Origin: an uncultured Oscillospiraceae bacterium
Lineage (GTDB): Bacteria; Bacillota; Clostridia; Oscillospirales; Acutalibacteraceae
Direction: 5' to 3'
DNA: 48,253 nucleotides
Assembly (NCBI GenBank): GCA_905211675.1
Contig: CAJMBP010000001.1
Location: 1-48,253 of the forward strand
Shown: positions 25,491-43,450 of the stretch, one piece after another
Position numbering within the stretch: position 1 is the first letter of the stretch
How the letters are laid out: each line of letters opens with the position of its first letter
Notes under the pieces: generated by a model
The model's input: the letters and a program-made list of their open reading frames with translations, nothing else
The model's database searches: none
What the model was told of the DNA's origin: nothing
Position numbers and translations under genes: made by a program

Positions 25491-26216
25491 TTATTTGTAA
25501 ACGGCAATACCCTTTCGCTTGTGCTCGCTCGCTTTATGCATACGCTCGATTATTTTTTTGTTTTCTTCGGCGATATTGCCGCCGTTTATATATGCGTCAA
25601 GCTCGGCATAGCTTACGCCCATTTCGGTTTCATCGGTCTGCCCGTCAAAGAGCGCCGCCGACGGTGCCTTTTCGATTATACGGACAGGGGCGTCAAGGTA
25701 TTTTAAAAATTCGTACACTTCGGTAACGGTAAGGTCGGCTATAGGATTAAAGTCGTGCGCGCCGTCACCCCATTTGGTGAAATAACCAACATAAGCCTCG
25801 CTTTTATTGCCGGTGCCTGCAACCAAACGGCCCTCCGCCGCGGCAACCGCATAAAGAGTAAGCATACGAAGTCGCGGAGCTATGTTTGCAAGCGCCGCGG
25901 AATTCATTTCGGCAACGCCCTCAAGCGCTTTGAGCTCGGCTTCTTTTACGGGGGTTAAATCAACCGTGCGTGTTTCGATACCGTACCTTTCGGCAACCGA
26001 TTTTGCATCGGCGGTGTCCTCATCGTAATTTCTTTTGGAGGTGCAGGGCAGTATAATACCCACCGTGTTGTCGCACGCCGCTTTACAGAGTATTCCCACC
26101 AAGGCGGAATCTTTACCTCCGCTGTTTCCGAAAACAATACCCTTTGAGCCGCTGTCGGCAAGAATATTTTTTATAAAAGCAACCCTTTTTTCAAATTCAA
26201 CCTTGTAATCACGCAT
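25491..26216 (-). CDS. nadE: NAD+ synthetase, single-domain (NadE1-type) enzyme
   Basis: The PP-loop is GNSGGKDSAL. There are 241 aa with no fused C-N hydrolase domain. The RBS is AAGAGG. Confidence 0.92.
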   Translation of the reverse strand: MRDYKVEFEKRVAFIKNILADSGSKGIVFGNSGGKDSALVGILCKAACDNTVGIILPCTSKRNYDEDTADAKSVAERYGIETRTVDLTPVKEAELKALEGVAEMNSAALANIAPRLRMLTLYAVAAAEGRLVAGTGNKSEAYVGYFTKWGDGAHDFNPIADLTVTEVYEFLKYLDAPVRIIEKAPSAALFDGQTDETEMGVSYAELDAYINGGNIAEENKKIIERMHKASEHKRKGIAVYK

Positions 26217-26231
26217 AAAAATAACCTCTTT

Positions 26232-27004
26232 TCAGTATAATTCGGGGCGTCGGTCACGAAATACGGGGATTTTTCCGCAAATTTCGGAAAACGCCTGTAT
26301 GTCGCAATCCGCCGTTATAATCTGCTGACCCTCACCGGCAATCGCCAATGTTTTGCCAAGCGGGTCAATAATCGAAGAATTTCCGCCGTAGAGCGTTCTA
26401 TCGGCTTGACCGCAGGAATTACAGCAAACGACAAATATTTGATTTTCAATAGCCCGTGCCGTTGTCAGACTGCGCAGATGAAAAACACGTTCGGCAGAGA
26501 TACAACAAAAAGCACATCAAGCCCCTGCAAAGCAAGGCGCCTCGTAAGCTCGGGAAAGCGCAGATCATAACAAATGATAACGCCGCACCTTACACCGTCA
26601 AGCGTAAAGCGGCACAGGCGGTCTCCCTTTGTGTAGTAATTGTCCTCTCCCATAGGGGTAAAAAGATGCGTTTTATCATAGCTTGCTATGCACTCGCCCT
26701 TTCGGTTAAAAACCGTAGCGGTATTAAACACCCTACCGTCACGAACATTTGACACCGATCCTGCAACAATGTTTACGCCGTATTTTTTTGCCAAGGCGCC
26801 TATACACAAATTTACCTCTTTGCAGTCATTGCAACACAGCTGATTAAGATTTTCTTTCGGAAAGAAGCCCGTATTCCATGTTTCGGGTAAAACCAAGACA
26901 TCGGGCTTTTGTTTTACCGCTTCGCTTATAAGCTTTTCGGCACGGCAAAAATTCTCTTGCGGCATGCCGAGCTTCATATCCATTTGCAGGCAGGCAACCC
27001 TCAT
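26232..27004 (-). pseudogene. Carbon-nitrogen hydrolase (nitrilase superfamily) gene interrupted by a frameshift; candidate glutaminase partner of NadE
   Basis: Frame A (27004-26465) encodes MRVACLQMD...LPETW(E)...YDKTHLF(K)...IICYDLRFPE(C)...LDVLFVVS, then a premature stop. A second frame, open from 26516 to 26232, encodes AERVFHLRSLTTARAIENQIFVVCCN...YGGNSSIIDPLG...FRDRRPELY*. Both frames are open across 26468-26516, so a single indel near 26490-26500 joins them. Confidence 0.75.
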
Positions 27005-27009
27005 AACCG

Positions 27010-28200
27010 TTACCCCTTTTTAAGCAGAGTGCAAAGTCGGTTTGCAGCTTCCTTTGTTTCTTCGGGATTGCCGAAGGTCGAAAAGCGGAAATAGCCTTTT
27101 CCGCATTCGCCGAAGCCGTCACCGGGTATGCCTACTACCTGAATTTCATTAAGCAGGTAATCGAAAAAGTCCCAACCGCTCATATTGTCGGGGCACTTCA
27201 TCCATATATACGGCGAATTTTTGCCGCCGACATACCAAATACCCGCGGCATCAAGCGCCTCCATAAAATATGAAGCATTTTTCTTGTAAACGCTTAAATT
27301 TTCGTGAATCTGACGCTGTCCTTCGGGGGTAAATACTGCTAAAGCACCCTTTTGAAGAATATAGGAAACGCCGTTTGTTCTGGTTTCGCGGTTGCGTGAC
27401 CACATTTCGTTTAAATTCATACCGCCGCGAACAAGATTGCACGGAACAACAGTGTAACCGAGTCGTGTGCCTGTAAAGCCTGCGGTTTTTGAGAGCGAAC
27501 AAATTTCAATAGCGCATGTATCCGCACCGTCTATTTCATAAATGCTGTGCGGAATATCGCTTTCCTCAATAAATATCTCATACGCCGCATCAAATAAAAT
27601 AACGGCACCGATTTCGTTTGCATAGTCAACCCAAGCCTTCAACTGACTGCGGTTAAACACAGCACCTGTTGGGTTATTAGGTGAACATATATAAATAATA
27701 TCTGTCTCTACATTTTTGTCGGGTTTTGGTAAAAAACCGTCTTTTTCTCCTGCGGCTAAATGAATAACCTTTCTGCCTGCGAGTATATTTGTGTCAACAT
27801 ATTCGGGATATGCAGGTTCAATTACCATTACGGTGTTGTCCCGTTCAAAAAGCTCGAGAATATCGCCTAAGTCATCACAAGCACCGCTTGAAACAAAAAT
27901 TTCATTCTGTGAAACCGAAGCGCCCATTTTGCCGTAATATTCCGCAATGGCGCGGCGAAGGTCGGCATCGCCTACCTCGGGCATATAACCGTGAAAGGTT
28001 GCGGCATTCGCCTGATCGTCAACCGCTTTATGAAGCGCTTTAATAACAGCGTCGCACAGCGGCAACGACACATCGCCCACACCCATTCTCAAAACATTTT
28101 TATCGGGATTTGCCTCGAGATACTCATTGGTTTTGCGATAGATTGTGTTAAACAAATATGTGTCTTTAAGTTCTTTGTATCTTGTGTTGGGTTTTAACAT
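27010..28200 (-). CDS. dapL: LL-diaminopimelate aminotransferase-like class I aminotransferase
   Basis: YLFNTI...LRMGVGDVSLPL, CSPNNPTG, the PLP-lysine block SLSKTAGFTGTRLGYTVVP, and GGKNSPYIWMKCP are DapL-type blocks. The protein is 396 aa. Confidence 0.8.
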   Translation of the reverse strand: MLKPNTRYKELKDTYLFNTIYRKTNEYLEANPDKNVLRMGVGDVSLPLCDAVIKALHKAVDDQANAATFHGYMPEVGDADLRRAIAEYYGKMGASVSQNEIFVSSGACDDLGDILELFERDNTVMVIEPAYPEYVDTNILAGRKVIHLAAGEKDGFLPKPDKNVETDIIYICSPNNPTGAVFNRSQLKAWVDYANEIGAVILFDAAYEIFIEESDIPHSIYEIDGADTCAIEICSLSKTAGFTGTRLGYTVVPCNLVRGGMNLNEMWSRNRETRTNGVSYILQKGALAVFTPEGQRQIHENLSVYKKNASYFMEALDAAGIWYVGGKNSPYIWMKCPDNMSGWDFFDYLLNEIQVVGIPGDGFGECGKGYFRFSTFGNPEETKEAANRLCTLLKKG

Positions 28201-28259
28201 ATTTTGTTTCTCCTTTGTATGTGTCAGCGGTATGTTAATGCTTTAATACCGTTATCGTA

Positions 28260-31200
28260 TTATTCGGCGTCAATAGTTGATATGCCCATTGTGACCTCTT
28301 CAAGCACATCAAGAAGCATTCTCACCGTGTCAAGTGAGGTAAGCATTGTAATGTTGTTCTGTGCCGCGCATTGGCGTATTGCAATGCCGTCACCGAAATG
28401 CTTGCCCGAAAGAATGGCGCGCGTGTTGATAACATAGCTGACATAGCCTGCGCGTATAGAATCCAATACCTCTTGACTGCCTTCGCTGGGTTTATGTCTT
28501 ATCCGCGTGCGAATTCCGTTTTCTTTCAAGACTTCGCCCGTAAGCGAAGTGGCTTCAATATTGAATCCCATATTGTAAAATCTGCGCACCAAAGGCAGTG
28601 TTTCTTCCTTGTCTTCGTCGGCAACGCTTACAAGCACCGTTCCGTAATTGCGAAGCTTAAGCCCCGACGCCACCATAGCCTTGTAAACCGCACGGTGAAG
28701 CTTTTTGTCGTAACCTATAGCCTCGCCCGTAGATTTCATTTCGGGCGAAAGGTAGGCGTCCATACCGCGAAGCTTTGAAAAGGAAAATGCCGGAGCCTTA
28801 ACATAATAGCGCTCCTTTTCTTTTGGATACCGAGCAAAAATTCCCTGCTCACTCAGCGACACACCTAAATTACATCGGGTTGCTATATCGGCAAGGCTGT
28901 AGCCCGTGGCTTTTGATAAAAACGGCACCGTTCTCGAAGAACGGGGATTAACCTCTATAATATAAACCTCGTCGTGTTCATCAACAATAAACTGTATATT
29001 GAAAAGTCCTATAATTCCAATTCCCAAACCGAGCTTTTCGGTATAATCGAGAATGGTGTTTTTAACCTTTTGCGAAATACTGTATGTGGGATATACGCTT
29101 ATAGAGTCACCCGAATGAACACCGGTTCGCTCAACAAGCTCCATAATACCCGGAACAAACACACGCTGACCGTCGCAAACCGCGTCAACCTCGACCTCTT
29201 TACCCTTAATGTATTTATCTACCAAAACGGGCTTATCAACATCAATTTCAACGGCGGTTTTAAGGTAATTACGCAGCGCCGCTTCCTTAGCGACTATCTG
29301 CATAGCTCTGCCGCCCAATACAAAGCTCGGGCGAACAAGCACAGGGTACCCGATTTCCTCGGCGGCCTTTACGCCCGCTTCTACGCTTGTCACCGCCCTG
29401 CCCTTAGGTTGCGGGATGCCCAGAGAGCTTAACAGCTTTTCAAAAGCATCACGGTTTTCGGCGCGCTCGATAGCGTCGCAATCCGTGCCGATTATCTTTA
29501 CGCCTCGGGCGCTGAGCGGCGCCGCCAAAGAGATAGCCGTTTGACCGCCCAGTGTTGCAATAACTCCCTCGGGCTTTTCGAGCTCTATAATATTCATAAC
29601 ATCTTCTACGCAAAGCGGCTCAAAATAAAGCTTATCCGAGCAGGTGTAGTCGGTAGAAACCGTTTCGGGATTGTTGTTTATAATAATTGCCTCATAGCCC
29701 GAAGCCTTTATGGTTTGCACCGCGTGAACGGTAGAATAGTCAAACTCTACACCCTGACCTATGCGTATGGGTCCCGAACCGAGCACAATGATTTTCTTTT
29801 TGTCAGAAACAACCGATTCGTTTTCCTGCTCATAGGTGGAATAAAAATACGGAATGTAACTTTCAAACTCCGAAGCGCAGGTGTCAATCATTTTATAAAC
29901 GGGAAGAATACCGTTTGCTTTTCTTAAATTGAAAACCTCTTCCTCGGTCATATTCCAAAACTGCGCGATAGCCTTGTCTGAAAAGCCCATCTTTTTAGCA
30001 CAGCGAAGCACATTTATATTTCCGCAGTTTTGTTTTACTTCATTTTCTTCATCTACAATATTACGCAGTTTGCGTATAAAAAATCTGTCAATCGCCGTTA
30101 TCTCGGCAATGCTGTCTATGCTTTCACCCAAACGCAAAAGGCGGGCAATCGCATAAATACGGTCGTCGGTACCTATTTTAATATAGTCACAAAGCTCGTC
30201 ACGGGTCATGCCGTCAAACCTGGCGTAATAAAGGTGACAAAGCCCTATTTCAAGAGAACGAATTGCTTTCAACAGGCTTTCTTCAACCGTTCTGCCTACG
30301 CTCATAACCTCGCCTGTGGCCTTCATCTGAGTAGAAAGCGAGTTGTTGGCGTCTGCAAATTTATCAAACGGAAAACGCGGCATTTTGGTAACAACATAGT
30401 CAAGCGCCGGCTCAAACGACGCGGGCGTGTTGGCAATTTGAATTTCGTCGAGCGTCATACCTACGCCGATTTTTGCCGATACGCGAGCTATAGGGTAACC
30501 GCTTGCCTTTGAGGCGAGAGCCGACGAACGCGAAACTCTCGGATTGACCTCAATTAAATAATACTTAAAAGAATTAGGGTCAAGTGCAAACTGCACATTG
30601 CAGCCGCCCTCAATTTTAAGCGCGCGAATAATTTTAAGCGCGCTGTCCCGCAGCATTTGATATTCCTTGTTAGTAAGCGTTTGAGAAGGGCAAACTACAA
30701 TGGAGTCGCCCGTGTGTATTCCGACAGGGTCAAGATTTTCCATATTACAAATAGTAATAGCGGTGTCGTTGCTGTCACGCATTACCTCATATTCGATTTC
30801 TTTATAACCCTTAATGCTCTTTTCGATAAGAACCTGATTCACAGGAGAAAGCGAAAGTGCATTTTTCATAAGCGGTAAAAACTCCGCCTCGTTATCGGCA
30901 AAGCCGCCGCCGGTTCCGCCGAGCGTAAAGGCAGGACGCAAAACTACGGGATAGCCGATTTTTTGTGCAACCGCCAAGCCCTCCTCAACAGAGCTTGCTA
31001 TGTCCGACGGCAAAACGGGCTCGCCCAATTCCTCGCAAAGCTCTTTAAACAACTCGCGGTCCTCGGCGCGCTCAATACTGCTGCTGCGGGTTCCGAGCAG
31101 TTCTGTGCGGCACTCTTCAAGAATGCCCTTCTTTTCAAGCTGCATTGCAAGGTTAAGCCCAGTCTGACCGCCGATACCCGGCAAAATTGCGTCGGGGCGC

Positions 31201-31442
31201 TCATAACGGATAATCTTCGCAATGTATTCAAGCGTCATCGGTTCCATATAAACCTTATCGGCAATAGAGGTATCGGTCATAATGGTAGCAGGATTGGAAT
31301 TGCACAGAACAACCTCATAGCCCTCTTCCTTTAAAGCGATGCACGCCTGTGTTCCCGCATAGTCGAATTCAGCCGCCTGACCTATAACAATAGGCCCCGA
31401 ACCGATAACAAGCACTTTTTTGATATCTGTTCTTTTAGGCAT
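28260..31442 (-). CDS. carB: Carbamoyl-phosphate synthase large subunit
   Basis: The 1060-aa protein has duplicated ATP-grasp halves ([24 protein letters not shown] / [19 protein letters not shown]) and a C-terminal MGS-like domain. Confidence 0.97.
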
Positions 31443-32529
31443 TTTTGAATTCCTCCATCAATTTTATAAAGCAGTCAAACAAATAGGCGCTGTCCTGCGG
31501 ACCGGGTGCGCTTTCGGGATGATACTGAACGCTGAACACTTTATCTTTATCGCATTTCACGCCTTCTACGGTATTGTCAAGCAGATTTATATGCGTTACC
31601 GAAAGCGGAGTGTTTTTAAGGCTTTCGGCGTCAACCGCATAGGAATGATTTTGCGAAGTGATTTCAATTTTATTTGTTTCAAGATTTCTGACGGGATGAT
31701 TACCGCCGCGGTGTCCGAACTTCAATTTATAGGTTTTAGCCCCGTAAGCCAAGGATATAATTTGATGGCCGAGACAAATACCGAAAATAGGATACCTACC
31801 TATCAGTTCTTTTATTGTCTCAACTGTTTGCGGCACATCGGTAGGGTCGCCCGGACCGTTTGAAATAAAAATTCCGTCGGGGTCAAGTGCCATTATCGCC
31901 TCGGCAGGCGTGTTCCACGGAACTGCCGTTACCTTACAGCCGCGTTTGTTAAGTGAGCGTACTATGTTCATTTTCATACCGCAGTCAATGGCTACCACTC
32001 GGTAATTCTGTTTTTCGGCATTGTGAATGGCAATTTTATCACAGCTTACCCTCGATACTGCGTCGGTAGGCAGCTTTGCAGATTTTAAAATTTTAAGTCC
32101 GTCCTCTAAAGAAGTGGTAACATCGGTTATAAGAACCTTTTGACTGCCATAGTCACGAATTGAGCGATTCAGCTTTCTTGTGTCAACGCCGTATATTCCG
32201 ACAACGCCGAAGCGCTTCATTACATCGGACAGCGTTTGTGTGCTTCTGAAATTAGAGGGCTCATCGTTGTACTCATGAACTATAAGCGCGCCGATTGTAA
32301 TATTATCTCTTTCAAAGTCGTCGTCAGCCATACCGTAATTACCTATAAGCGGATAGGTCATAACTACAGCCTGATCGGTATATGACGGATCTGAAAGTAT
32401 TTCCTGATAACCTACCATAGAGGTGTTAAAAACAATTTCAAGTACACACTGCCTGTCTGCACCGAAGCCATAGCCTAAATATTCTCGGCCGTCCTCTAAA
32501 ATCAGTTTTTTGTCAAATTCTTTTATCAT
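31435..32529 (-). CDS. carA: Carbamoyl-phosphate synthase small (glutaminase) subunit
   Basis: The class I GATase triad context is [10 protein letters not shown] ... QYHPE. I placed the start at ATG 32529 (MIKEFDKK) after AAGGTGA. There is an 8-nt overlap with carB. Confidence 0.95.
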
Positions 32530-32539
32530 AACCGTCACC

Positions 32540-35643
<3,104 letters not shown>

Positions 35644-35683
35644 TCATAGGTTGGGTATGTAGGTTTTTTTACGACACTATATG

Positions 35684-37216
35684 TTATTCCCATTCAACCG
35701 TTGCCGGAGGTTTTGAGGTTATATCATAAACCACTCTTGATATTCCCTTAATTTCGTTTGTGATACGGCTGCTGGCCTTTTCAAGCACCTCGTAAGGCAG
35801 TCTTGTCCACTCGGCCGTCATAAAATCATCGGTGGTAACCGCACGCAGCGCTACGGTGTAGCCGTAGGTTCTTGCGTCACCCATAACACCCACCGAGCGA
35901 AGATCGGTAAGCACGGCAAAATACTGATTTGTACTGCCTTCAAGTCCTGCGTTTGCAATCTCTTCACGGAAAATTGCGTCGGCTTCTCTTAACAGGTCTA
36001 ATTTTTCTTTTGTGATTTCACCGATAACCCGAACCGCAAGTCCGGGGCCGGGGAAGGGCTGACGCCATACAAGCTCATGCGGAATTCCGAGTTGAGCTCC
36101 GGTTTCACGCACCTCGTCCTTAAACAAATCGCGAAGCGGCTCAACAATTTCATCAAAGTCGATTACATCGGGGAGCCCGCCCACATTGTGGTGGCTTTTA
36201 ATAACCGCCGAATCGCCCTTTCCGCTTTCAATAACATCGGGATATATTGTTCCCTGCACAAGCACATTCATTTTGCCCAACTTGTTTGCCGTGTCCTCAA
36301 ACACACGAATAAATTCTTCACCGATGATTTTACGCTTTTTTTCGGGCTCGGTAACGCCTTTAAGCTTTTGAAGAAATCTCTGCTCGGCGTTTACTCTTAT
36401 AAGGTTAATTCCGAACTGCTTGCCGAATGTATGCTCAACAAAATCGCCCTCGTCTTTACGAAGAAGTCCGTGGTCAACAAACACACAGGTAAGATTGTCA
36501 CCTATTGCTTTGTGCAAAAGAACAGCGGCAACCGAGCTGTCAACACCGCCCGAAAGAGCGAGAAGCACCTTTTTGCCGTCAAGCTCTTTTTTGTATTTTT
36601 CTACAGACGCTTCAACAAAGTTTTCCATTTTCCAATCTGCTTTGCACCCGCAGATTTCAAAAATAAAGTTATGAAGCATTTGCTTTCCGTAAACGGTGTG
36701 TGTAACCTCGGGGTGAAACTGCACGCCGTAAAGCTTTCTGCCCGCATCGCACATGGCGGCACAGGGGCATTTTGCCGTATGGGCTATTGTAACAAAGCCT
36801 TTAGGCGGCGTTTTTACATAATCGGTATGGCTCATCCAGCAAACACTTTCGGCAGGCACCTTATTAAACAAAACATTTTCTTGTGTGAACACGGTTGTCT
36901 TACCGTACTCGCTGCTGTTTTCGGCCGAGGTGATTTCGCCGCCCGCCATATATGCCATAAGCTGATCGCCGTAGCATATACCTAAAATCGGCACACCCAA
37001 ATCAAGAATTTGCGGGTCATAATGCGGTGATTTTTCATCATAAACGCTGTTGGGACCGCCTGTAAAAATTATGCCCTTGTAGCCTGTATTTTTAATTTCA
37101 TCGGGCGTAATTTTGTTGTACGGCTTTATCTCCGCATATACCTGCTCGGCACGAACCCTTCGGGCAATTAGCTGGTTGTACTGACCGCCGAAATCCAAAA
37201 CAAGAATTTTATCCAC
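35684..37216 (-). CDS. guaA: GMP synthase (glutamine-hydrolysing)
   Basis: The GTG start follows AGGTGA. GATase blocks are ILGICYGDQ and QFHPEV. The PP-loop is [11 protein letters not shown]. The C-terminus is ...PPATVEWE. Confidence 0.97.
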
Positions 37217-37231
37217 TGTATCACCTGTTCC

Positions 37232-38647
37232 TTACAGATTGATTGTTGCCGACTTTCCGTCAGCGTCCGCGATAAGCGGTTTAATTTTATTCACAAACGC
37301 AGTCACCTGTTCGGGGCATCTGCCTATATATAAGCTCGGGTTAAGAAGCTCGGTCATCTCTTGCTCGGAAAGCCCGAATTCTTTTTCGGCCGCCAAGCGT
37401 GAAAGCAGGTCGCATTGCTCGCCGTTTTTCATTTTTGCCGTAGCCTCCATAGAGCATTTGCGTATAATTTCATGAAGCTGCTGACGGTCGCCGCCGCGCT
37501 TAACAGCCTCCATCATCAAATTTTCAGTTGCAATAAACGGCAAATACTCTCTTACCGTTTTTTCTATAACCTTTTCATTCACATTAAGTCCGTCGGTAAT
37601 ATTTTGCGCAAGTCGAAGAACAGCGTCGGCGCAAAGCATGCCCTCGGGCAGTGAAATACGGCGGTTTGCAGAGTCGTCGAGCGTTCTTTCAAGCCACTGC
37701 GTCGAAGCAGTTATGGGAGCGTTCATAGCGTCTGCCATAAGATAACGCGAAAGCGAGCAAATGCGCTCACTGCGCATGGGGTTGCGTTTATATGCCATTG
37801 CCGAAGAGCCTATCTGATTTTTTTCAAAGGGCTCTTCAACCTGACGGTCATGCTGTAAAAGGCGTATGTCGTTTGCCATGCGGTAACAGCTTTGCGCAAT
37901 AGAAGAAAGGGCATTTAAAATGCGGCTGTCAACCTTACGCGGATATGTTTGCCCCGACACATCAAAGCACTCGTCAAACCCGAAATCTGCGGCAATCATA
38001 CGGTTCATTTCATCAATTTTAGCCGAGTCGCCTTCAAATAGATCCATAAAGCTTGCCTCGGTGCCCGTTGTTCCGCGGCAGCCTAAAAATTTAATATTTT
38101 CAATAGCAAAATCAATTTCTTTAAGGTCGGAGAGAAAATCCTGCATCCAAAGTGTTGCGCGCTTACCCACCGTTACAAGCTGTGCCGGCTGATAGTGAGT
38201 ATATCCGAGCGTGGGCAAGGCTTTATACTTTTCGGCAAAATCCGCAAGGTTTGCCAAAACGCCCAAAAGCTCCGAGCGTAAATATTTAAGCGCGTCACGG
38301 TAAATTACAAGGTCGGCATTGTCGGTTACATAACAGCTTGTAGCGCCTAAATGTATAATTCCCGCAGCGGTCGGAGCAACCTTGCCGTAAGCGTAAACAT
38401 GCGCCATAACATCGTGACGCACCTCTTTTTCACGGCGGCTTACACAGTCATAGTCAATATCGGTAATGTGTGCCGACAGCTCGTCAATCTGCTCTTGTGT
38501 AATGGGAAGCCCCAAGGCTTTTTCAGCCTTTGCGAGCGAAACCCAAAGCCTGCGCCATGTTTGATACCTTGTGTCAGAGGAAAAAAGTTCAAGCATATAA
38601 TCGGAAGCATAGCGTGATGATAATGGTGATTCATATCGGTTAGTCAT
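37232..38647 (-). CDS. purB: Adenylosuccinate lyase
   Basis: The N-terminus is RYESPLSSRYAS. The fumarate-lyase signature is GSSAMAYKRNP. The protein is 471 aa. Confidence 0.96.
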   Translation of the reverse strand: MTNRYESPLSSRYASDYMLELFSSDTRYQTWRRLWVSLAKAEKALGLPITQEQIDELSAHITDIDYDCVSRREKEVRHDVMAHVYAYGKVAPTAAGIIHLGATSCYVTDNADLVIYRDALKYLRSELLGVLANLADFAEKYKALPTLGYTHYQPAQLVTVGKRATLWMQDFLSDLKEIDFAIENIKFLGCRGTTGTEASFMDLFEGDSAKIDEMNRMIAADFGFDECFDVSGQTYPRKVDSRILNALSSIAQSCYRMANDIRLLQHDRQVEEPFEKNQIGSSAMAYKRNPMRSERICSLSRYLMADAMNAPITASTQWLERTLDDSANRRISLPEGMLCADAVLRLAQNITDGLNVNEKVIEKTVREYLPFIATENLMMEAVKRGGDRQQLHEIIRKCSMEATAKMKNGEQCDLLSRLAAEKEFGLSEQEMTELLNPSLYIGRCPEQVTAFVNKIKPLIADADGKSATINL

Positions 38648-38673
38648 GTTGTGTCTCCTTAATTTTTAACATT

Positions 38674-39948
38674 TTATCTGACAATAATGCTGTCTCTTTC
38701 GGGACCTACCGATACATACTTGATGTGACAGCCTATTTGTTGCTCGATAAAACTTACATAATCTTTTGCCGCCTGCGGCAGTCCGTCCCAAGTGCGAACG
38801 CCCGAAATATCGCATTTCCAGCCGTCGAAGTATTCTATAATCGGTTTTGCATTTTTTAACGCCGACGGGAACGGAAATTCGTCTGTCTGTTCGCCGTTAA
38901 GTTCATAATGAGTGCAAACGGGTATTTTATCCATATAGCTTAAAACATCAAGCTTTGTAAGCGCTATGGAGCTTGCGGCCTGAACCTCAACGCCGTACCT
39001 TGTGGCAACTATGTCAATAGGCCCTACTCTGCGCGGTCTGCCGGTCTTTGCACCGTATTCAAAACCGTTTTTGCGAAGCTCCTCGGCTTCTTCGCCGAAC
39101 ATTTCGCACACAAACGGACCTTCGCCCACACAGGTGGAATATGCCTTTACAACACCTACTACATCATCAATTTTCGCGCTCGGAAGACCCGAACCCATGG
39201 GAGCATACGCCGCCGTGGTGTTTGAAGATGTGGTGTAAGGGTATATGCCATAATCTAAATCTCTTAAAGAGCCGAGTTGTGCTTCAAAAAGAATATTCTT
39301 GCCGCTGTTTTGTGCCTGCTTTAAAAATACCCCCGTATTGCAAACATACGGTTTTATCTTTTCACAGTAATTTTCAAGCCATTCTTCAAGCATTTCCATA
39401 GTATAGGGCTTTGCACCGTACACTCTTGTAAGGGTAAGATTTTTCCATTCCATCAGGTCGGCAAGGTGGGCCTTAAGCTCTTCGGGGTAAAAAAGCTCGC
39501 CTGCAAGAACGGTCTTTTTTTGATATTTGTCGGAATAAAAAGGCGCTATGCCCTGCTTGGTAGAGCCGTATTTTTTATCGGCAAGGCGCATTTCCTCAAG
39601 CTCGTCCATATCGCGGTGCCAAGGAAGCAGCAATGACGCGCGGTCGCTGATTTTAAGATTATCGGGGGTAAGTGCCACTCCCTTTGACATAACATCATTC
39701 ATTTCTGACCACAAATTTTCGGGGTCAACCGCCACGCCGTTTCCCAGAATATTTACCACATCGGGTCTGAATATGCCCGAAGGTAAAAGGTGAAGCGCAA
39801 ATTTACCACATTCGTTAATAACCGTGTGACCGGCATTGCCGCCGCCCTGAAAACGAACTACAACATCATAGTCTTTTGTAAGTAAATCGACCATTCGGCC
39901 CTTGCCTTCATCGCCCCAGTTAATACCTACGATTGCACAGTTTGACAT
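38674..39948 (-). CDS. purA: Adenylosuccinate synthase
   Basis: The P-loop is GINWGDEGKG. GGGNAGHT and GAKTGRPRR are further family blocks. The protein is 424 aa. Confidence 0.96.
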   Translation of the reverse strand: MSNCAIVGINWGDEGKGRMVDLLTKDYDVVVRFQGGGNAGHTVINECGKFALHLLPSGIFRPDVVNILGNGVAVDPENLWSEMNDVMSKGVALTPDNLKISDRASLLLPWHRDMDELEEMRLADKKYGSTKQGIAPFYSDKYQKKTVLAGELFYPEELKAHLADLMEWKNLTLTRVYGAKPYTMEMLEEWLENYCEKIKPYVCNTGVFLKQAQNSGKNILFEAQLGSLRDLDYGIYPYTTSSNTTAAYAPMGSGLPSAKIDDVVGVVKAYSTCVGEGPFVCEMFGEEAEELRKNGFEYGAKTGRPRRVGPIDIVATRYGVEVQAASSIALTKLDVLSYMDKIPVCTHYELNGEQTDEFPFPSALKNAKPIIEYFDGWKCDISGVRTWDGLPQAAKDYVSFIEQQIGCHIKYVSVGPERDSIIVR

Positions 39949-39961
39949 AAATATACCCCTT

Positions 39962-40675
39962 TTATATACGCTCGGTAAGGCGTTTCATTACTTCGGCATA
40001 AGCATCTTCAACTCCGCCGAGGTCACGGCGGAATCTGTCTTTGTCAAGCTTTTCGCCGGTTTTTGTGTCCCACAGTCTGCAGGTGTCGGGGCTTATTTCA
40101 TCGGCAAGCACAATGGTGCCGTCCGACAGTCTGCCGAATTCCAACTTAAAGTCAACCAATGTTACGCCGCACTCGGCCCAAAACGCTTTAAGCTGCTCAT
40201 TTACACCGAAAGCATACCTTTTGATTGTTTCAATTTCATCTGCGGTGGCAAGCTTCATGGCGATAGCGTGATAGCTGTTCATGAGCGGGTCGCCGAGTTC
40301 ATCGTTTTTATAAGAAAATTCAATAGTCGGTGCTTCAAAAACAAAGCCTTCCTCAACACCGTAACGCTTTGAAAACGAGCCTGCGGCAATGTTGCGTATA
40401 ATAACTTCTAACGGTACAATCGAAACCTTTTTCACAACAGTTTCGCGGTCGTTAATTTCTTCGACATAGTGGGTTGGAATGCCCGCCTTTTCAAGACGCT
40501 CCATAAGAAGATTGCTAATTCGGTTGTTGATAACGCCCTTGCCTGCGATTGTTCCCTTTTTGAGCCCGTTAAACGCCGTGGCATCGTCTTTATAAGAAAC
40601 GATAAGCAGTTCGGGGTTCTCGGTCGCAAACACTTTTTTTGCTTTTCCTTCGTACAGCTGTTCTCTTTTGGTCAT
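39962..40675 (-). CDS. purC: Phosphoribosylaminoimidazole-succinocarboxamide (SAICAR) synthase
   Basis: LYEGKAK.VF, EVIIRNIAAGS and ADEISPDTCRLWD are family blocks. The RBS is GGAGG. Confidence 0.96.
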   Translation of the reverse strand: MTKREQLYEGKAKKVFATENPELLIVSYKDDATAFNGLKKGTIAGKGVINNRISNLLMERLEKAGIPTHYVEEINDRETVVKKVSIVPLEVIIRNIAAGSFSKRYGVEEGFVFEAPTIEFSYKNDELGDPLMNSYHAIAMKLATADEIETIKRYAFGVNEQLKAFWAECGVTLVDFKLEFGRLSDGTIVLADEISPDTCRLWDTKTGEKLDKDRFRRDLGGVEDAYAEVMKRLTERI

Positions 40676-40725
40676 AGTTTATATACCTCCAAATATTATT
40701 AACGGCCTTAAATAATAACGCCTTT

Positions 40726-40782
40726 AAAAACAAGAAAACGGCAATGACGTTTTAATGAGCAAACATTAAAGACGCCTTTGCC
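40726..40782 (-). promoter_or_regulatory. Terminator-like hairpin plus U-tract inside the purC-operon leader (candidate attenuator)
   Basis: On the minus strand: GGCAA-A-GGCGT-C-TTTAATG [TTTGCT] CATTAAA-ACGTC-A-TTGCC. That is about 17 bp with one mismatch and one bulge and a hexaloop. It is followed by GTTTTCTTGTTTTT and begins about 8 nt after the predicted transcription start. Confidence 0.55.
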
Positions 40783-40796
40783 TTTTTTACCCGAAT

Positions 40797-40825
40797 ATTA
40801 TACTCTTTTTATCGGAATTTGTCAA
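40797..40825 (-). promoter_or_regulatory. SigA-type promoter of the purC...nadE operon
   Basis: On the minus strand: TTGACA (40825-40820), a 17-nt spacer, TATAAT (40802-40797); both hexamers match the consensus exactly. Confidence 0.6.
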
Positions 40826-40897
40826 CCACTTAAGGCAAGGTTTTAAAAAAATCTGAAGTCCGAAAAAAATTTATGCCACAGTCTGTCAACAAACATT

Positions 40898-40930
40898 AAA
40901 AGGCAAAAGCGCCGTGTTAAAACGGCGCCT
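40898..40930 (-). terminator. Rho-independent terminator after the ECF S-component gene
   Basis: On the minus strand: GGCGCCG-TTTTAACA-CGGCGCT, followed by TTTGCCTTTT. Confidence 0.7.
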
Positions 40931-40932
40931 TT

Positions 40933-41463
40933 TTACATTTTCATAAGCTTTTCGTGATAAAGCCTGTATATTCCGCATTTCCAGCATAAAAGCATACCCA
41001 AAACGGCACCTACCGCCGCTTGAAGTATTTGGTAGGGAAGCTTCATTATTGCGTATTCGGGGGTGCTGTATATAAAAGCCCTTCCGAGAGAGTATCCGAC
41101 TACCATTATTACGGCACCGATTGCAACACCGATACCCGAAGCCAAAACGCGATGCTTTTTCATAACATAATTCGCAAAAAGCGAAATTACCACTGCCTGT
41201 AAGCCGTGTGTAACAAGAGAAACAAACATAGGAGCAGGATAAAAGAACAGGTCGCCGAGAAAGGCTCCGATACCGCCTACAATAAAGGCAGCAACAGGGT
41301 CTAAAATAATAGCGGCGGTGCAGATAACAATATCATTCATATACAAATGACCGCCCGGAACGGGAACCCCGAAAGAGCTTAATGCAATATTTATGGCCAT
41401 AAACATAGCCGTTGTGCACAGCCATACCGTAGTTTTTTGCGTTGCTTTGTTTTTGTTTCCCAT
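40933..41463 (-). CDS. ECF transporter S (substrate-capture) component, substrate unknown
   Basis: A 176-aa, about 6-TM protein with FMAINIALSSFGVPVPGGHLYMNDIVI and GGIGAFLGDL blocks typical of ECF S components. ATG 41463 follows AAGGGG; the ORF-track TTG at 41466 lies one codon upstream of it. Confidence 0.78.
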   Translation of the reverse strand: MGNKNKATQKTTVWLCTTAMFMAINIALSSFGVPVPGGHLYMNDIVICTAAIILDPVAAFIVGGIGAFLGDLFFYPAPMFVSLVTHGLQAVVISLFANYVMKKHRVLASGIGVAIGAVIMVVGYSLGRAFIYSTPEYAIMKLPYQILQAAVGAVLGMLLCWKCGIYRLYHEKLMKM

Positions 41464-41529
41464 CAATTTACCCCTTGCTTGATTTATCGGCTTTATTAAG
41501 CATAATACTTAACTGAAATCAACCAGTAT

Positions 41530-41559
41530 ATTATATATGCCGACCGGTTGCTTTGTCAA
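41530..41559 (-). promoter_or_regulatory. SigA-type promoter for the ECF S-component gene
   Basis: On the minus strand: TTGACA (41559-41554), an 18-nt spacer, TATAAT (41535-41530). Confidence 0.5.
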
Positions 41560-41620: not shown

Positions 41621-42205
41621 TTAAGAATATGTTTTAATAATCTCTTCGGCAACCTCACGTTTCGATATGCAACGGTCCATCGCCTGCTTTTCTATGTATC
41701 GGTGAGCTCCCGGCTCGTCCATGCTGATTTGACTGATAAGAAGCCACTTCGCTCGGTTTACAATACGTATTTCCTCCATTTTTTCTTCAATTGAAAGGGT
41801 TTTCTTTTCGGCCTTACGCAATCGCTCGCGCGCGCTTGACATCCAACCGAGCGCCGTTATAACGGTGGGCTTTGACATAGGCTTTGACAGCGTGAACACA
41901 CCGTGCTCGGCAACCTTGTCAAATATTTCGGCATGTAATTCGGCACGCACTATCAACAGCACAACCGTACCCTTTGAATTGCAGACATCAATGGCAAACC
42001 GCGTGCCCATATCGTCGGGCAGGGGTGAATTTATAATCACATAATCAAATGCCCGTTCCGCAAAAGCACGCTTTGCGGCGCTTATGCTCGACGCCGTACA
42101 AACAGGATTATAGTTTGATTCGGGGAGTAAATCAAAAAGAGCGGTGTTGAAGTTTTCGGCCGCAGAAACGACAAGAACGCTGTAAACCCGTTCTTTAAGA
42201 CTCAT
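41621..42205 (-). CDS. ANTAR-domain RNA-binding antiterminator with a pseudo-receiver domain (AmiR/NasR/NitR-like)
   Basis: The C-terminal ANTAR domain is IVNRAKWLLISQISMDEPGAHRYIEKQAMDRCISKREVAEEII. The N-terminal REC-like fold lacks the acidic pair (VLVVSAAEN) and the phospho-acceptor (DYVIINSPLPDDMG, with Asn at the Asp position). The RBS is AAAGGAGGGG. Confidence 0.88.
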   Translation of the reverse strand: MSLKERVYSVLVVSAAENFNTALFDLLPESNYNPVCTASSISAAKRAFAERAFDYVIINSPLPDDMGTRFAIDVCNSKGTVVLLIVRAELHAEIFDKVAEHGVFTLSKPMSKPTVITALGWMSSARERLRKAEKKTLSIEEKMEEIRIVNRAKWLLISQISMDEPGAHRYIEKQAMDRCISKREVAEEIIKTYS

Positions 42206-42238: not shown

Positions 42239-43450
42239 TTATTTGCCACAGTAAATTTCCGTAATTGCCGACGGCACATACGCTTTAATAAATTCGCTCC
42301 GAGCGGCAATTTTACGGGCTTCATCCAAATTTTGGGGAAGCTTTTGATACTTTGCCAGCGTATCCGAATCGGCTTTATACAAATTGATATCGGCTACGGC
42401 AGGTATTTCAAGCTTGTTCTGCAACCCATAAAGCCCCGCATATATAATAAGCGCAAACGCCAAATACGGATTTGCGGTAGGGTCGGGTGAGCGCAACTCG
42501 GCACGGCGATATTCGCCGACTGCCGCAGGAATACGCACAAGCTGCGAACGGTTTTCGCTCGACCATGATACATAACCGGGTGCTTTATCCGAGCCGAAAC
42601 GTTTGTATGAAGCATCGGTAGGATTAAGAAAAAGGGTCATTTCAACAGCCTTTTCAAGTACCCCCGCAATCATATTGCAAAGGTCTTGTGAGCCTTTTGA
42701 ATTTTTAACCGACATATTTATATGAAATCCGTTACCGGGTTTGTTTTTAAGCGGCTTCGGTGAAAAGTTCGCCCACAAACCGTTGCGACGGGCAACCGTT
42801 TTTACCACCGTCTGAAAGGTAATTGCATTGTCGGCGGCGGTCAGGGCGTCGGAATATCTGAAATCTATCTCGTTTTGTCCGGGGCCCTGCTCGTGATGAG
42901 AGCTTTCGGGGCGTATGCCCATTTGCTCTAATGTAAGACAAATTTCACGCCTTATATTTTCGCCTCGGTCTTCGGGCGCAATGTCCATATATCCCGCTTC
43001 GTCATACGGAATGTCGGTTGGTTTTCCGCTTTCATCCAACTGAAAAAGATAAAATTCCTGCTCGGCGCCGAAGGCGAACGAATATCCCGCTTTTTCGGCG
43101 TCGTCAACCGCTTTTTTAAGCAAATATCTGGTATCGCACTCAAAAGGTCTTCCGTCGGGATAGGTTATGTGCGAAAACATACGCACAACCTTGCCGTGTT
43201 CCGGTCTCCACGGAAGCAGCATAAGCGTTTCGGGCTCGGGATGAAGCAATAAATCACACCTGCTTTCATCACCGAAGCCTGCTATAGCAGACGCGTCAAA
43301 TGCAATACCGTATTCAAAGGCACGGGGCAGTTCCGCAGGCATTATAGATATATTTTTTTGTTTGCCGAATACATCACAAAAAGCAAGACGAATAAACTTT
43401 ACATCCTCCTCGTTGACGTACTGCATTACCTCTTCCTTGGAATACTTCAT
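42239..43450 (-). CDS. glnA: Glutamine synthetase (type I family, short 403-aa form)
   Basis: EQEFYLF, HHEQGPGQNEIDF, GNGFHINMS, SWSSENRSQLVRIP and ELRSPDPTANPYL are GS catalytic blocks. Confidence 0.93.
   Translation of the reverse strand: MKYSKEEVMQYVNEEDVKFIRLAFCDVFGKQKNISIMPAELPRAFEYGIAFDASAIAGFGDESRCDLLLHPEPETLMLLPWRPEHGKVVRMFSHITYPDGRPFECDTRYLLKKAVDDAEKAGYSFAFGAEQEFYLFQLDESGKPTDIPYDEAGYMDIAPEDRGENIRREICLTLEQMGIRPESSHHEQGPGQNEIDFRYSDALTAADNAITFQTVVKTVARRNGLWANFSPKPLKNKPGNGFHINMSVKNSKGSQDLCNMIAGVLEKAVEMTLFLNPTDASYKRFGSDKAPGYVSWSSENRSQLVRIPAAVGEYRRAELRSPDPTANPYLAFALIIYAGLYGLQNKLEIPAVADINLYKADSDTLAKYQKLPQNLDEARKIAARSEFIKAYVPSAITEIYCGK

What the first reader, a model, noticed from the sequence alone, without database searches (positions are those of the whole stretch)
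40676..40932. purC-operon leader: consensus promoter followed within about 8 nt by a strong terminator-like hairpin, with no recognisable purine, ZTP or PurBox element
After the perfect TTGACA-17-TATAAT promoter, the transcript would almost immediately form a roughly 17-bp hairpin (40740-40782) with a hexaloop. A U-tract GUUUUCUUGUUUUU follows, then a weaker AU hairpin just before the RBS. I found no alternative promoter between this structure and purC. Expression of the whole 15-kb operon therefore seems to require read-through. The upstream RNA is too short to host a conventional aptamer. I also could not match the G-box purine riboswitch, the ZTP/pfl motif or the CCGAAC PurBox. The stem contains the DNA palindrome TTTAATG-N6-CATTAAA. 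The 11-mer CAAACATTAAA (plus strand) recurs exactly at 40760-40770 and 40890-40900, each time next to a GGCAAA(A)G(C)G hairpin arm. The options are a protein-dependent attenuator (the ANTAR gene is two genes upstream), a repressor roadblock on the palindrome, or a 5' stabilising structure.
Basis: seen in the sequence. Interest (0 to 1): 0.6.

Follow-up and report, generated by a model that had tools for sequence, protein, structure and literature searches.

The report
Nitrogen-controlled ANTAR attenuator before purC
The stop-signal hairpin right after the purC promoter is one copy of a leader found across gut Clostridia, in which an 18-nt hairpin of the type bound by ANTAR anti-stop proteins competes with a terminator, so nitrogen status probably controls a 15-kb operon of nitrogen-consuming biosynthetic enzymes.

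Summary
A perfect TTGACA-17-TATAAT promoter (40825-40797, minus strand) is followed at about +8 by a 17-bp hairpin with a hexaloop and a U-tract (40782-40726). No Rfam family matches.

That is the ANTAR recognition signature. This mini-hairpin and the terminator share the segment 40782-40768, so only one can form.

The same unit occurs in 107 distinct copies in front of glnN, gdh, split GOGAT-glnA-ANTAR, amtB and purC/purA/guaA/pyrG operons in many Clostridia. Stem classes covary (AAAGGC/GUCUUU, AUGAGC/GUUCAU, CAGGGC/GUCUUG and others) and the loop stays AANGRN. It tracks a pseudo-receiver ANTAR gene, here two genes upstream (41621-42205).

Best reading (0.75): a NitR-type, protein-dependent antitermination leader. 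It differs from the textbook form in having one hexaloop hairpin starting near +1, with no upstream recruitment hairpin.

The operon gathers glutamine- and aspartate-nitrogen-consuming steps, not a purine pathway. The palindrome is the terminator's apical stem. The second 11-mer copy remains unexplained.

Earlier notes of this scan report the same design on other genomes.

The parts
40820..40825 (-). -35 hexamer TTGACA
   Evidence: 12/12 promoter match. Of 108 distinct units in relatives, 52 sit directly behind an equally strong promoter.
40797..40802 (-). -10 hexamer TATAAT. The transcription start is inferred at about 40790 (GGGUAAAAAAGG...).
   Evidence: The gap from the -10 end to the first stem base is 11 nt here and 7-11 nt in the 52 relatives. 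The start site was not mapped.
40768..40785 (-). Antiterminator mini-hairpin: stem AAAGGC (40785-40780), hexaloop AAAGGC (40779-40774, A1 = 40779, G4 = 40776), stem GUCUUU (40773-40768). It is the candidate ANTAR binding site.
   Evidence: It folds alone at -3.5 to -4.5 kcal/mol. Of GC-N6-GU hairpins followed by a T-run, 124 of 150 have A1 and G4. Outer stems are fully paired in 62% against 2.8% of controls, and the stem classes covary.
40740..40782 (-). Intrinsic-terminator hairpin: 5' arm 40782-40764, loop UUUGCU 40763-40758, 3' arm 40757-40740. It shares 40782-40768 with the mini-hairpin, so the two structures exclude each other.
   Evidence: -19.8 kcal/mol, z -4.1. Model R1 scores it at 84 bits. 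In 92 of 107 related units the loop and 3' stem of the mini-hairpin pair with a downstream arm.
40726..40739 (-). U-tract GUUUUCUUGUUUUU of the terminator
   Evidence: In 97 of 107 related units the hairpin ends 0-2 nt before a T-rich run.
40686..40725 (-). Spacer with a weak AU hairpin, then the GGAGG ribosome-binding site (40690-40686)
   Evidence: This stretch is not conserved in the related purC leaders. No role is assigned.
25491..40675 (-). Controlled operon: purC, purA, purB, guaA, pyrG, purF, carA, carB, aminotransferase, C-N hydrolase, NAD synthase
   Evidence: Pfam assignments. Promoter-like and terminator-like sites inside it are no more frequent than in shuffled sequence.
41621..42205 (-). 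Candidate regulator: a 194-aa protein with a pseudo-receiver and an ANTAR domain
   Evidence: Pfam ANTAR 2e-15. Asn replaces the phospho-acceptor Asp (DYVIINSPLP). At the EutV RNA-contact positions it has R, R, H and M. It co-occurs with the motif.
42239..43450 (-). 403-aa glutamine-synthetase paralogue directly upstream of the ANTAR gene; a possible sensor partner
   Evidence: It is adjacent to the ANTAR gene in 66 of 70 loci with enough flank. The metal-ligand Glu residues are kept, but the catalytic flap Glu is Lys in 66 of 66 orthologues.
40890..40900 (-). Second copy of the 11-mer UUUAAUGUUUG, just after the terminator of the ECF S-component gene and upstream of the promoter
   Evidence: It has no mini-hairpin or terminator context of its own. 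It may be chance (my estimate is roughly 0.01-0.05 for this region) or a relic.

Best explanation
The leader is a protein-dependent transcription attenuator of the ANTAR (NitR) type.

Proposed sequence of events:
1. RNA polymerase starts at about 40790.
2. It first transcribes an 18-nt hairpin, AAAGGC[AAAGGC]GUCUUU, whose hexaloop has A at position 1 and G at position 4.
3. This hairpin is weak on its own (about -4 kcal/mol). About 20 nt later the 3' arm of a -20 kcal/mol terminator is made. That arm captures the loop and the GUCUUU strand, and transcription stops at the U-tract (40739-40726).
4. When the pseudo-receiver ANTAR protein encoded two genes upstream (41621-42205) is active, it binds and holds the hexaloop hairpin. 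The terminator then cannot form, and polymerase reads into purC-purA-purB-guaA-pyrG-purF-carAB-aminotransferase-NAD synthase.

By analogy with NitR of solventogenic clostridia, the protein would be active under nitrogen limitation. The signal probably reaches it through a partner protein, not through phosphorylation.

What is shown: both alternative structures, their mutual exclusivity, their conservation and covariation, the nitrogen-gene regulon, and the linkage to the ANTAR gene.

What is inferred: the transcription start, binding by this protein, the direction of regulation and the signal.
For: 1. Both structures exist and share 40782-40768.

2. The hairpin is one of 107 distinct units found upstream of identified nitrogen genes in Clostridia. 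Counted over all 124 detected copies, the downstream genes are glnN 48, split-GOGAT first gene 28, gdh 14, purC 9, glnA paralogue 6, purA 2, guaA 1, pyrG 1, unidentified 14 and none 1.

3. An unbiased scan gave these results. Of GC-N6-GU hairpins with a downstream T-run, 124 of 150 have an A1/G4 loop, against 1/16 expected by chance. Given the core, the four outer pairs all form in 124 of 201 cases, against 26 of 933 for other loops.

4. The mini-hairpin stem covaries while the loop stays AANGRN. The classes are AAAGGC/GUCUUU, AUGAGC/GUUCAU, UGAAGC/GUUUCA, CAGGGC/GUCUUG, GAAGGC/GUCUUC and AAGAGC/GUUCUU. The outer 5' stem bases are mostly unpaired in the terminator fold, so the terminator does not explain their complementarity.

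5. The terminator covaries too, for example C-G 65 / U-A 22 and U-A 58 / C-G 28 at two positions.

6. The A1/G4 hexaloop overlapping a terminator is the published ANTAR signature (PMC3369931). The minimal site was later redefined as a single hexaloop (PMC8934654).

7. Linkage: 27 of 33 genus genomes with two or more motif copies have the ANTAR orthologue, against about 32 of 179 without. In about 45 of 80 loci from several families the motif lies within 10 kb of the gene.

8. The ANTAR domain keeps the EutV contact positions or replaces them conservatively.

9. NitR, an ANTAR protein encoded next to glnA, is reported to antiterminate GS/GOGAT genes on nitrogen limitation (PMC6316151; PMC4676874).
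Against: - There is no expression, 5'-end or 3'-end data.
- No binding was tested.
- The textbook ANTAR substrate has two hairpins 5-12 nt apart, and changing that spacing abolished EutV control. Here no second hairpin exists.
- The window has a single unit, whereas relatives often have two in tandem.
- A few genomes with the motif showed no ANTAR orthologue: G004, G008, G125, G014 and G072. Four of these carry near-identical short contigs that may be mis-binned.
- One close ANTAR carrier, G147, had no motif match.
- Co-occurrence among related genomes is not independent evidence.
- It is not obvious why glutamine consumers and GDH should be induced together with GS/GOGAT.
Confidence: 0.75

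Rival explanations
1. The mini-hairpin/terminator switch is real, but a factor other than the neighbouring ANTAR protein operates it. That could be another RNA-binding protein, a small RNA pairing with the 5' arm, or a small ligand.
For: Binding was not tested. Some motif-bearing genomes gave no ANTAR hit and one close ANTAR carrier gave no motif hit. The substrate lacks the second hairpin that EutV needs.
Against: The loop signature is exactly the ANTAR one. The motif lies within 10 kb of the ANTAR gene in many families and also fronts the operon that encodes the protein. An 18-nt hairpin is too small for known ligand aptamers. No complementary RNA was noticed.
Confidence: 0.1
2. The conserved sequence is a DNA operator at +1 to +20. 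A repressor bound there blocks initiation or elongation, and the hairpin potential is incidental.
For: The element sits at a fixed distance from the -10 (7-11 nt) in 52 units, which is a typical operator position.
Against: - More than half of the units have no promoter directly upstream. These are second tandem units and gdh-glnN intergenic units.
- Every unit is oriented with the gene and ends in a U-tract. Reverse-strand model scores are far lower.
- The second pair of the stem is G.U in every unit listed (the scan required GC...GU). That would be a G/T mismatch in DNA, so the two halves are not symmetric at DNA level.
- The apical stem changes sequence while keeping pairing.
Confidence: 0.05
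3. The hairpin is an unregulated feature: a 5' stabilising stem-loop or a leaky constitutive terminator that merely sets the expression level.
For: 5' hairpins close to +1 can stabilise Gram-positive mRNAs. Nothing here measures regulation.
Against: A stabiliser needs no U-tract, no conserved A1/G4 loop and no covarying alternative hairpin. It would also not be restricted to nitrogen genes or linked to an ANTAR gene.
Confidence: 0.05

Closest known systems
NitR, the ANTAR regulator encoded next to glnA in Clostridium saccharobutylicum / C. acetobutylicum (Stutz et al. 2007, as cited in PMC6316151 and PMC4676874)
   Same: An ANTAR protein is encoded directly after a glnA-type gene beside glutamate synthase genes. 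It is proposed to antiterminate nitrogen-assimilation genes. The host is also in the Clostridia.
   Different: Orthology to NitR was not tested because the primary paper and its sequence were not held. Here the regulon also reaches gdh, type III GS and a 15-kb nucleotide/NAD/carbamoyl-phosphate operon. The adjacent GS paralogue has Lys in place of the catalytic flap Glu. No antisense RNA was examined.
EutV and the eut leaders of Enterococcus faecalis (dual-hexaloop ANTAR substrate; PMC3369931, PMC8934654)
   Same: A hexaloop with A1 and G4 on a short stem, whose 3' strand is also the 5' strand of an intrinsic terminator. The protein stabilises the weak hairpin. The ANTAR domain has Arg, Arg, His and Met at the positions of EutV K143, K147, Y164 and M172.
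   Different: There is no upstream recruitment hairpin P1. The hairpin starts at about +1 to +4 of the transcript. Tandem complete attenuators 59-83 nt apart are common. The receiver domain lacks the phospho-acceptor Asp, so there is no EutW-type kinase input.
AmiR/AmiC of Pseudomonas aeruginosa
   Same: An ANTAR protein with a pseudo-receiver that is not phosphorylated and is controlled by a partner sensor protein. Like AmiR, the protein here has His at the position of the EutV stacking residue Tyr164.
   Different: The partner here, if there is one, would be a glutamine-synthetase paralogue and not a periplasmic-binding-protein-like AmiC. The target genes and RNA layout also differ.
NasR and the nasF leader of Klebsiella oxytoca
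   Same: Nitrogen-related ANTAR antitermination in which loop positions A1 and G4 are needed.
   Different: NasR senses nitrate through a NIT domain, and its leader has two hairpins.

Membership tests
ANTAR-target antiterminator RNA (Ramesh et al. 2012 definition) | Terminal hexanucleotide loop with A at position 1 and G at position 4 | tested here: met
   The window loop is AAAGGC (40779-40774). Of 150 hairpins with a T-run, 124 have A1/G4, and position 2 is A in 50 of 57 distinct hairpins. One relative has G1, with a compensating change in the terminator arm.
ANTAR-target antiterminator RNA (Ramesh et al. 2012 definition) | Short stem of at least 3 bp with conserved closing pairs | tested here: met
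   The stem is 6 bp. The lower four pairs covary among six classes. The closing C-G and G.U pairs were fixed by the scan, so their invariance is not independently shown.
ANTAR-target antiterminator RNA (Ramesh et al. 2012 definition) | Two such hairpins separated by a short linker (5-12 nt in eut) | tested here: not met
   A second A..G.. hexaloop hairpin within 35 nt upstream was found in 4 of 109 units, against 14 of 109 in shuffled controls. The promoter leaves only a few nucleotides of RNA upstream. Tandem units are 59-83 nt apart and each has its own terminator.
ANTAR-target antiterminator RNA (Ramesh et al. 2012 definition) | The hairpin overlaps an intrinsic terminator, so the two exclude each other | tested here: met
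   The shared segment is 40782-40768. This holds in 92 of 107 units, and 97 of 107 abut a T-run.
ANTAR-target antiterminator RNA (Ramesh et al. 2012 definition) | An ANTAR-domain protein is encoded in the genome, usually nearby | tested here: met
   The gene is at 41621-42205. Co-occurrence in the genus. Motif within 10 kb of the gene in about 45 of 80 loci.
ANTAR-target antiterminator RNA (Ramesh et al. 2012 definition) | Loop-specific protein binding and relief of termination | not testable with these tools
   This needs EMSA and in vitro transcription.
NitR / glnA-nitR nitrogen system of clostridia | The ANTAR gene lies directly downstream of a glnA-type gene, beside glutamate synthase genes | tested here: met
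   The window order is split GOGAT, glnA (403 aa), ANTAR. The same adjacency is seen in 66 of 70 loci and in Allobaculum.
NitR / glnA-nitR nitrogen system of clostridia | Leader attenuators in front of the GS/GOGAT genes | tested here: inconclusive
   In relatives, 28 GOGAT leaders and 6 glnA-paralogue leaders carry the AUGAGC/GUUCAU class. In this genome the GOGAT operon runs off the contig end at 48253, and glnN on contig C22 is cut at its 5' end.
NitR / glnA-nitR nitrogen system of clostridia | Sequence orthology to the characterised NitR | not tested
   The NitR sequence and the primary paper were not held.
Purine / ZTP / PRPP riboswitches, T-box, other Rfam leaders | Match to the family covariance model | tested here: not met
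   No match at gathering score in the window or in three related loci. At E <= 10 there were only chance-level hits.
pyrG-type reiterative-transcription attenuator | Conserved initially transcribed G-run, plus a pyrimidine-rich terminator 5' strand that extra 5' G residues could pair with | tested here: not met
   The 5' strand is purine-rich (AAAGGCAAAGG). The start region differs among units (GGGUAAAA here, ACAUAAAGG or ACGUAAAGG elsewhere).

The most novel reading that the evidence does not exclude
Gut Clostridia run their main nitrogen regulon with a three-part module. The parts are a glutamine-synthetase paralogue whose catalytic flap Glu is always Lys, acting as metabolite sensor; a non-phosphorylatable ANTAR protein that it gates; and single-hexaloop attenuators placed at +1 of the transcript, which work without the recruitment hairpin thought to be required for ANTAR action. 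In this genome the module also couples all glutamine- and aspartate-nitrogen-consuming steps of purine, pyrimidine, carbamoyl-phosphate and NAD synthesis to nitrogen status.
Probability: 0.35. Interest if true: 0.7.

Novelty: new variant of a known kind. Interest (0 to 1): 0.5.

Why it matters
It explains a leader that looks like a dead end: a perfect promoter that runs straight into a terminator with no aptamer.

It assigns a 15-kb operon to a nitrogen regulon. That operon supplies nitrogen to purines, pyrimidines, carbamoyl phosphate and NAD.

The design bears on an open question. EutV genetics says two hairpins are required, whereas the EutV-RNA structure says one hexaloop is the binding unit. 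Here many leaders have one hexaloop starting near +1, so they offer a natural test of whether the recruitment hairpin is dispensable.

The regulator has more than 523 relatives among the species genomes searched, including cultured gut isolates. This may therefore be a main route of nitrogen control in abundant gut and rumen Clostridia, which lack the well-studied NtrBC and TnrA/GlnR paradigms.

Tried and rejected
- Known RNA families: Rfam at gathering score and at E <= 10 gave nothing relevant.
- Nucleotide-level homology of the whole leader in 40 relatives gave only short pieces. One of these, a hairpin after gdh in G014, was the first lead.
- The palindrome TTTAATG-N(5-8)-CATTAAA as a genus-wide site was barely enriched over the reversed control. 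Most hits are the rplO/secY coding junction (MFQTLKNAW), so it was rejected as an operator.
- The 11-mer as a genomic motif: 6 copies, 4 of them inside genes, with no shared context.
- pyrG-like reiterative transcription and purine sensing at the start site were rejected. The 5' arm is purine-rich and the start region is not conserved.
- A second ANTAR hairpin next to the first was not found.
- More units in this genome: none were found. The places where they would be expected are at contig ends.
- The Stutz 2007 paper could not be read.
A tblastn in the script box showed a separate purE cluster on contig C9.

Full report
**The observation.** All genes near the finding are on the minus strand. 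The ECF S-component gene ends at 40933 and has its own terminator (40932-40905). A 12/12 promoter follows: TTGACA at 40825-40820, a 17-nt spacer, and TATAAT at 40802-40797. From 40782 to 40740 the transcript can form a 17-pair hairpin with one mismatch, one bulge and the loop UUUGCU. It is followed by GUUUUCUUGUUUUU. The 67-nt leader folds at -19.8 kcal/mol, with z = -4.1 and no shuffle of 200 as stable. No other promoter-like site lies before the purC ATG at 40675. Rfam gives nothing at gathering score and only chance-level hits at E <= 10. The transcription start, at about 40790, is inferred from the -10 position.

**What the operon is.** Pfam assigns the downstream genes as SAICAR synthetase, adenylosuccinate synthetase, adenylosuccinate lyase, GMP synthase, CTP synthase, amidophosphoribosyltransferase, carbamoyl-phosphate synthase small and large chains, a class I/II aminotransferase, a C-N hydrolase and NAD synthase. 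These are not consecutive steps of one pathway. They are the steps of nucleotide, carbamoyl-phosphate and NAD synthesis that take nitrogen from glutamine or aspartate. A purE cluster lies elsewhere, on contig C9. Upstream on the same strand lie a split glutamate synthase, a 403-aa glutamine-synthetase paralogue and a receiver-ANTAR protein. Between purC and nadE, promoter-like and terminator-like sites are no more frequent than in shuffled sequence.

**Related leaders.** Only 8 of 61 sampled genomes of the genus have purC. In six of them purC follows purE with no leader. G070 and G123 have purC behind a perfect promoter and a hairpin with the same 5' arm. G014 has that hairpin after a gdh gene. 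A covariance model built from these four found many more copies in the genus. They lie in front of gdh, type III glutamine synthetase (glnN), purC and guaA, and often as two complete units in a row. The conserved part is (C)AUAAAGGCAAAGGCGUCUUU. The apical stem differs in sequence between copies but stays paired. The 3' arm follows the 5' arm.

**The key feature.** The conserved 18-mer folds on itself as AAAGGC / AAAGGC / GUCUUU. That is a 6-bp stem with a hexaloop carrying A at position 1 and G at position 4 (-3.5 to -4.5 kcal/mol). This is the published recognition signature of ANTAR antiterminator proteins, whose target hairpin shares a strand with a terminator (PMC3369931). In the window the mini-hairpin occupies 40785-40768 and the terminator 40782-40740, so they exclude each other. 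Once the 5' strand is removed, no terminator-like fold remains.

**Tests of the mini-hairpin.** I scanned 101 sources: the window, genus loci, and 80 loci around orthologues of the ANTAR gene. The query was any N4-GC-N6-GU-N4 hairpin.
- Among those followed by a T-run, 124 of 150 have A1 and G4, against 1/16 expected by chance.
- Conditioning only on the core GC-A..G..-GU plus a T-run, all four outer pairs form in 124 of 201 cases. For other loops the figure is 26 of 933, and 175 of 6334 when there is no T-run.
- The outer stem falls into covarying classes: AAAGGC/GUCUUU, AUGAGC/GUUCAU, UGAAGC/GUUUCA, CAGGGC/GUCUUG, GAAGGC/GUCUUC and AAGAGC/GUUCUU. The loop stays AANGRN.
- In the terminator fold the outer 5' stem bases are mostly unpaired, so the terminator does not account for their complementarity.
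- Of 107 distinct units, 92 pair the loop and 3' stem with a downstream arm, and 97 end 0-2 nt before a T-rich run. Mean energies are -21.7 kcal/mol for the terminator and -3.9 for the mini-hairpin. The terminator pairs covary as well.

**The regulon.** The genes behind the 124 detected copies are glnN (48), the first split-GOGAT gene (28, nearly all of the AUGAGC/GUUCAU class), gdh (14), purC (9), the GS paralogue (6), purA (2), guaA (1) and pyrG (1). Fourteen were unidentified, among them an AmtB-like start, and one had no downstream ORF. In Allobaculum stercoricanis the layout is purC, asnB and glnN on one strand, divergent from split GOGAT, the GS paralogue and ANTAR.

**Link to the ANTAR protein.**
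- In the genus, 27 of 33 genomes with two or more motif copies have an orthologue, against about 32 of 179 without. Related genomes are not independent, and four of the exceptions carry near-identical short contigs that may be mis-binned.
- The protein has more than 523 relatives among species genomes. The best 80 are 65-82% identical across records labelled Lachnospiraceae, Oscillospiraceae, Christensenellales, Acutalibacteraceae and the Erysipelotrichaceae member Allobaculum (family assignment from my own knowledge).
- The model finds the motif within 10 kb in about 45 of 80 such loci.
- The receiver domain has Asn at the phospho-acceptor position and no acidic pair.
- At the EutV RNA-contact positions K143, K147, Y164 and M172 it has R, R, H and M (contact residues from PMC8934654).
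- NitR, an ANTAR protein encoded beside glnA in solventogenic clostridia, is reported to antiterminate GS/GOGAT genes on nitrogen limitation. The primary paper was not held.
- Ramesh et al. list ANTAR hits before glutamine synthetase genes in some Firmicutes. The words SAICAR and glutamate dehydrogenase do not occur in their supplementary files.

**How it differs from the textbook case.** The published substrate has two hairpins 5-12 nt apart, and that spacing mattered for EutV. Here a second hexaloop hairpin upstream is rarer than in shuffled sequence (4 of 109 against 14 of 109). In 52 of 108 distinct units a strong promoter ends 7-11 nt before the stem, so the hairpin starts at about +1 to +4. 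Where two units occur they are 59-83 nt apart and each has its own terminator. The EutV-RNA structure showed that one dimer contacts one hexaloop and redefined the minimal site as a single hexaloop. That makes a one-hairpin switch plausible but untested.

The window has one unit. Its promoter-proximal 5' part resembles unit 1 of the tandem purC leaders of G123, L114 and L128. Its apical stem and 3' arm resemble unit 2. It could have arisen by recombination between the repeats, but that is speculation.

**Rival readings.**
- A DNA operator is unlikely. Over half of the units have no promoter directly upstream. All are oriented with the gene and end in a U-tract. The stem contains a G.U pair in every listed unit, which would be a mismatch in DNA.
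- A plain stabiliser or constitutive terminator does not explain the conserved loop, the covarying alternative hairpin, or the restriction to nitrogen genes.
- A different trans-acting factor cannot be excluded without binding data.

**The signal.** This part is inferred. The regulator cannot be phosphorylated at the usual site. In 66 of 70 loci its gene follows the 403-aa GS paralogue. That paralogue keeps the metal-ligand glutamates but has Lys in place of the catalytic flap Glu in 66 of 66 orthologues (the role of the flap Glu is from established GS enzymology). The genome also has two type III GS genes. A sensor role for the paralogue, like AmiC for AmiR, is an attractive idea and nothing more.

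**Earlier notes of this scan.** After I had reached this reading, a look-up showed that the scan had already reported single-hexaloop ANTAR leaders and the pseudo-GS/pseudo-receiver pair on other genomes. It had also noted the pseudo-receiver on this window. These are unchecked notes. The points I rely on were tested here.

**Limits.** In this assembly the expected glnN and GOGAT leaders lie at contig ends, so only one unit can be seen in the genome.

**Verdict.** The finding is real and is explained as a member of a widespread nitrogen attenuator system of the ANTAR/NitR kind, in a one-hairpin variant. The interest is moderate. The mechanism class is known, but the architecture and the reach of the regulon are not described in the papers I could read.

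Noticed in passing
window 42239-43450 (-): The 403-aa glutamine-synthetase paralogue next to the ANTAR gene keeps the metal-ligand Glu residues. It has Lys where GS enzymes have the catalytic flap Glu (SDKAPGY against GYEAP). The Lys is present in 66 of 66 orthologues, and the C-terminal ~40 residues of typical GSI are missing.
   Followed up: partly
window 40890-40900 (-): A second exact copy of UUUAAUGUUUG lies just after the ECF S-component terminator and upstream of the promoter. It has no hexaloop hairpin or terminator of its own. It may be chance or a relic of a lost unit.
   Followed up: partly
G000 contig C22, about 18620-18950 (minus strand), outside the window: The long leader before asnB contains GGUGGCACCGCG and looks like a T-box. 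Upstream on the same contig lie a glnN cut at the contig end and an AmtB-PII fusion gene.
   Followed up: no
G000 contig C9, 7491-17204, outside the window: A second carB (72% identical to the window copy), a purE and a distant purF-like gene lie here. The nitrogen operon therefore duplicates some functions and purE is encoded apart from purC.
   Followed up: no
L083, L066, L089, L067, L084 (G014:C4, G008:C34, G004:C25, G125:C6, G123:C13): Five different species bins carry near-identical short contigs with the gdh leader. Four of these bins show no ANTAR orthologue (G123 has one). This suggests mis-binning or recent transfer.
   Followed up: no
L123, L126, L127: Records labelled Bacteroidaceae, Muribaculaceae and Paludibacteraceae carry an ANTAR gene about 75% identical to the window's, plus the motif. 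One motif copy is of the CAGGGC/GUCUUG class and sits before an AmtB-like gene. The taxonomic labels look doubtful.
   Followed up: no
L018, L020, L027, L033 and others (rplO-secY junction): The palindrome TTTAATGTTTCTAACATTAAA recurs across the genus because it spans the L15 stop and encodes the SecY start (MFQTLKNAW).
   Followed up: yes
window 41467-41559 (-): The ECF S-component gene between the ANTAR gene and the purC leader has its own 12/12 promoter (41559-41530) and a leader of about 60 nt with no hexaloop unit. In relatives, asnB occupies this position.
   Followed up: no
L146 1094 and L163 1094 (+): A further stem class, UGAAGC/GUUUCA with an AAUGGC or AAAGGC loop, precedes an unidentified gene starting MAAFERVKSGIPEM. 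It may be an additional regulon member.
   Followed up: no
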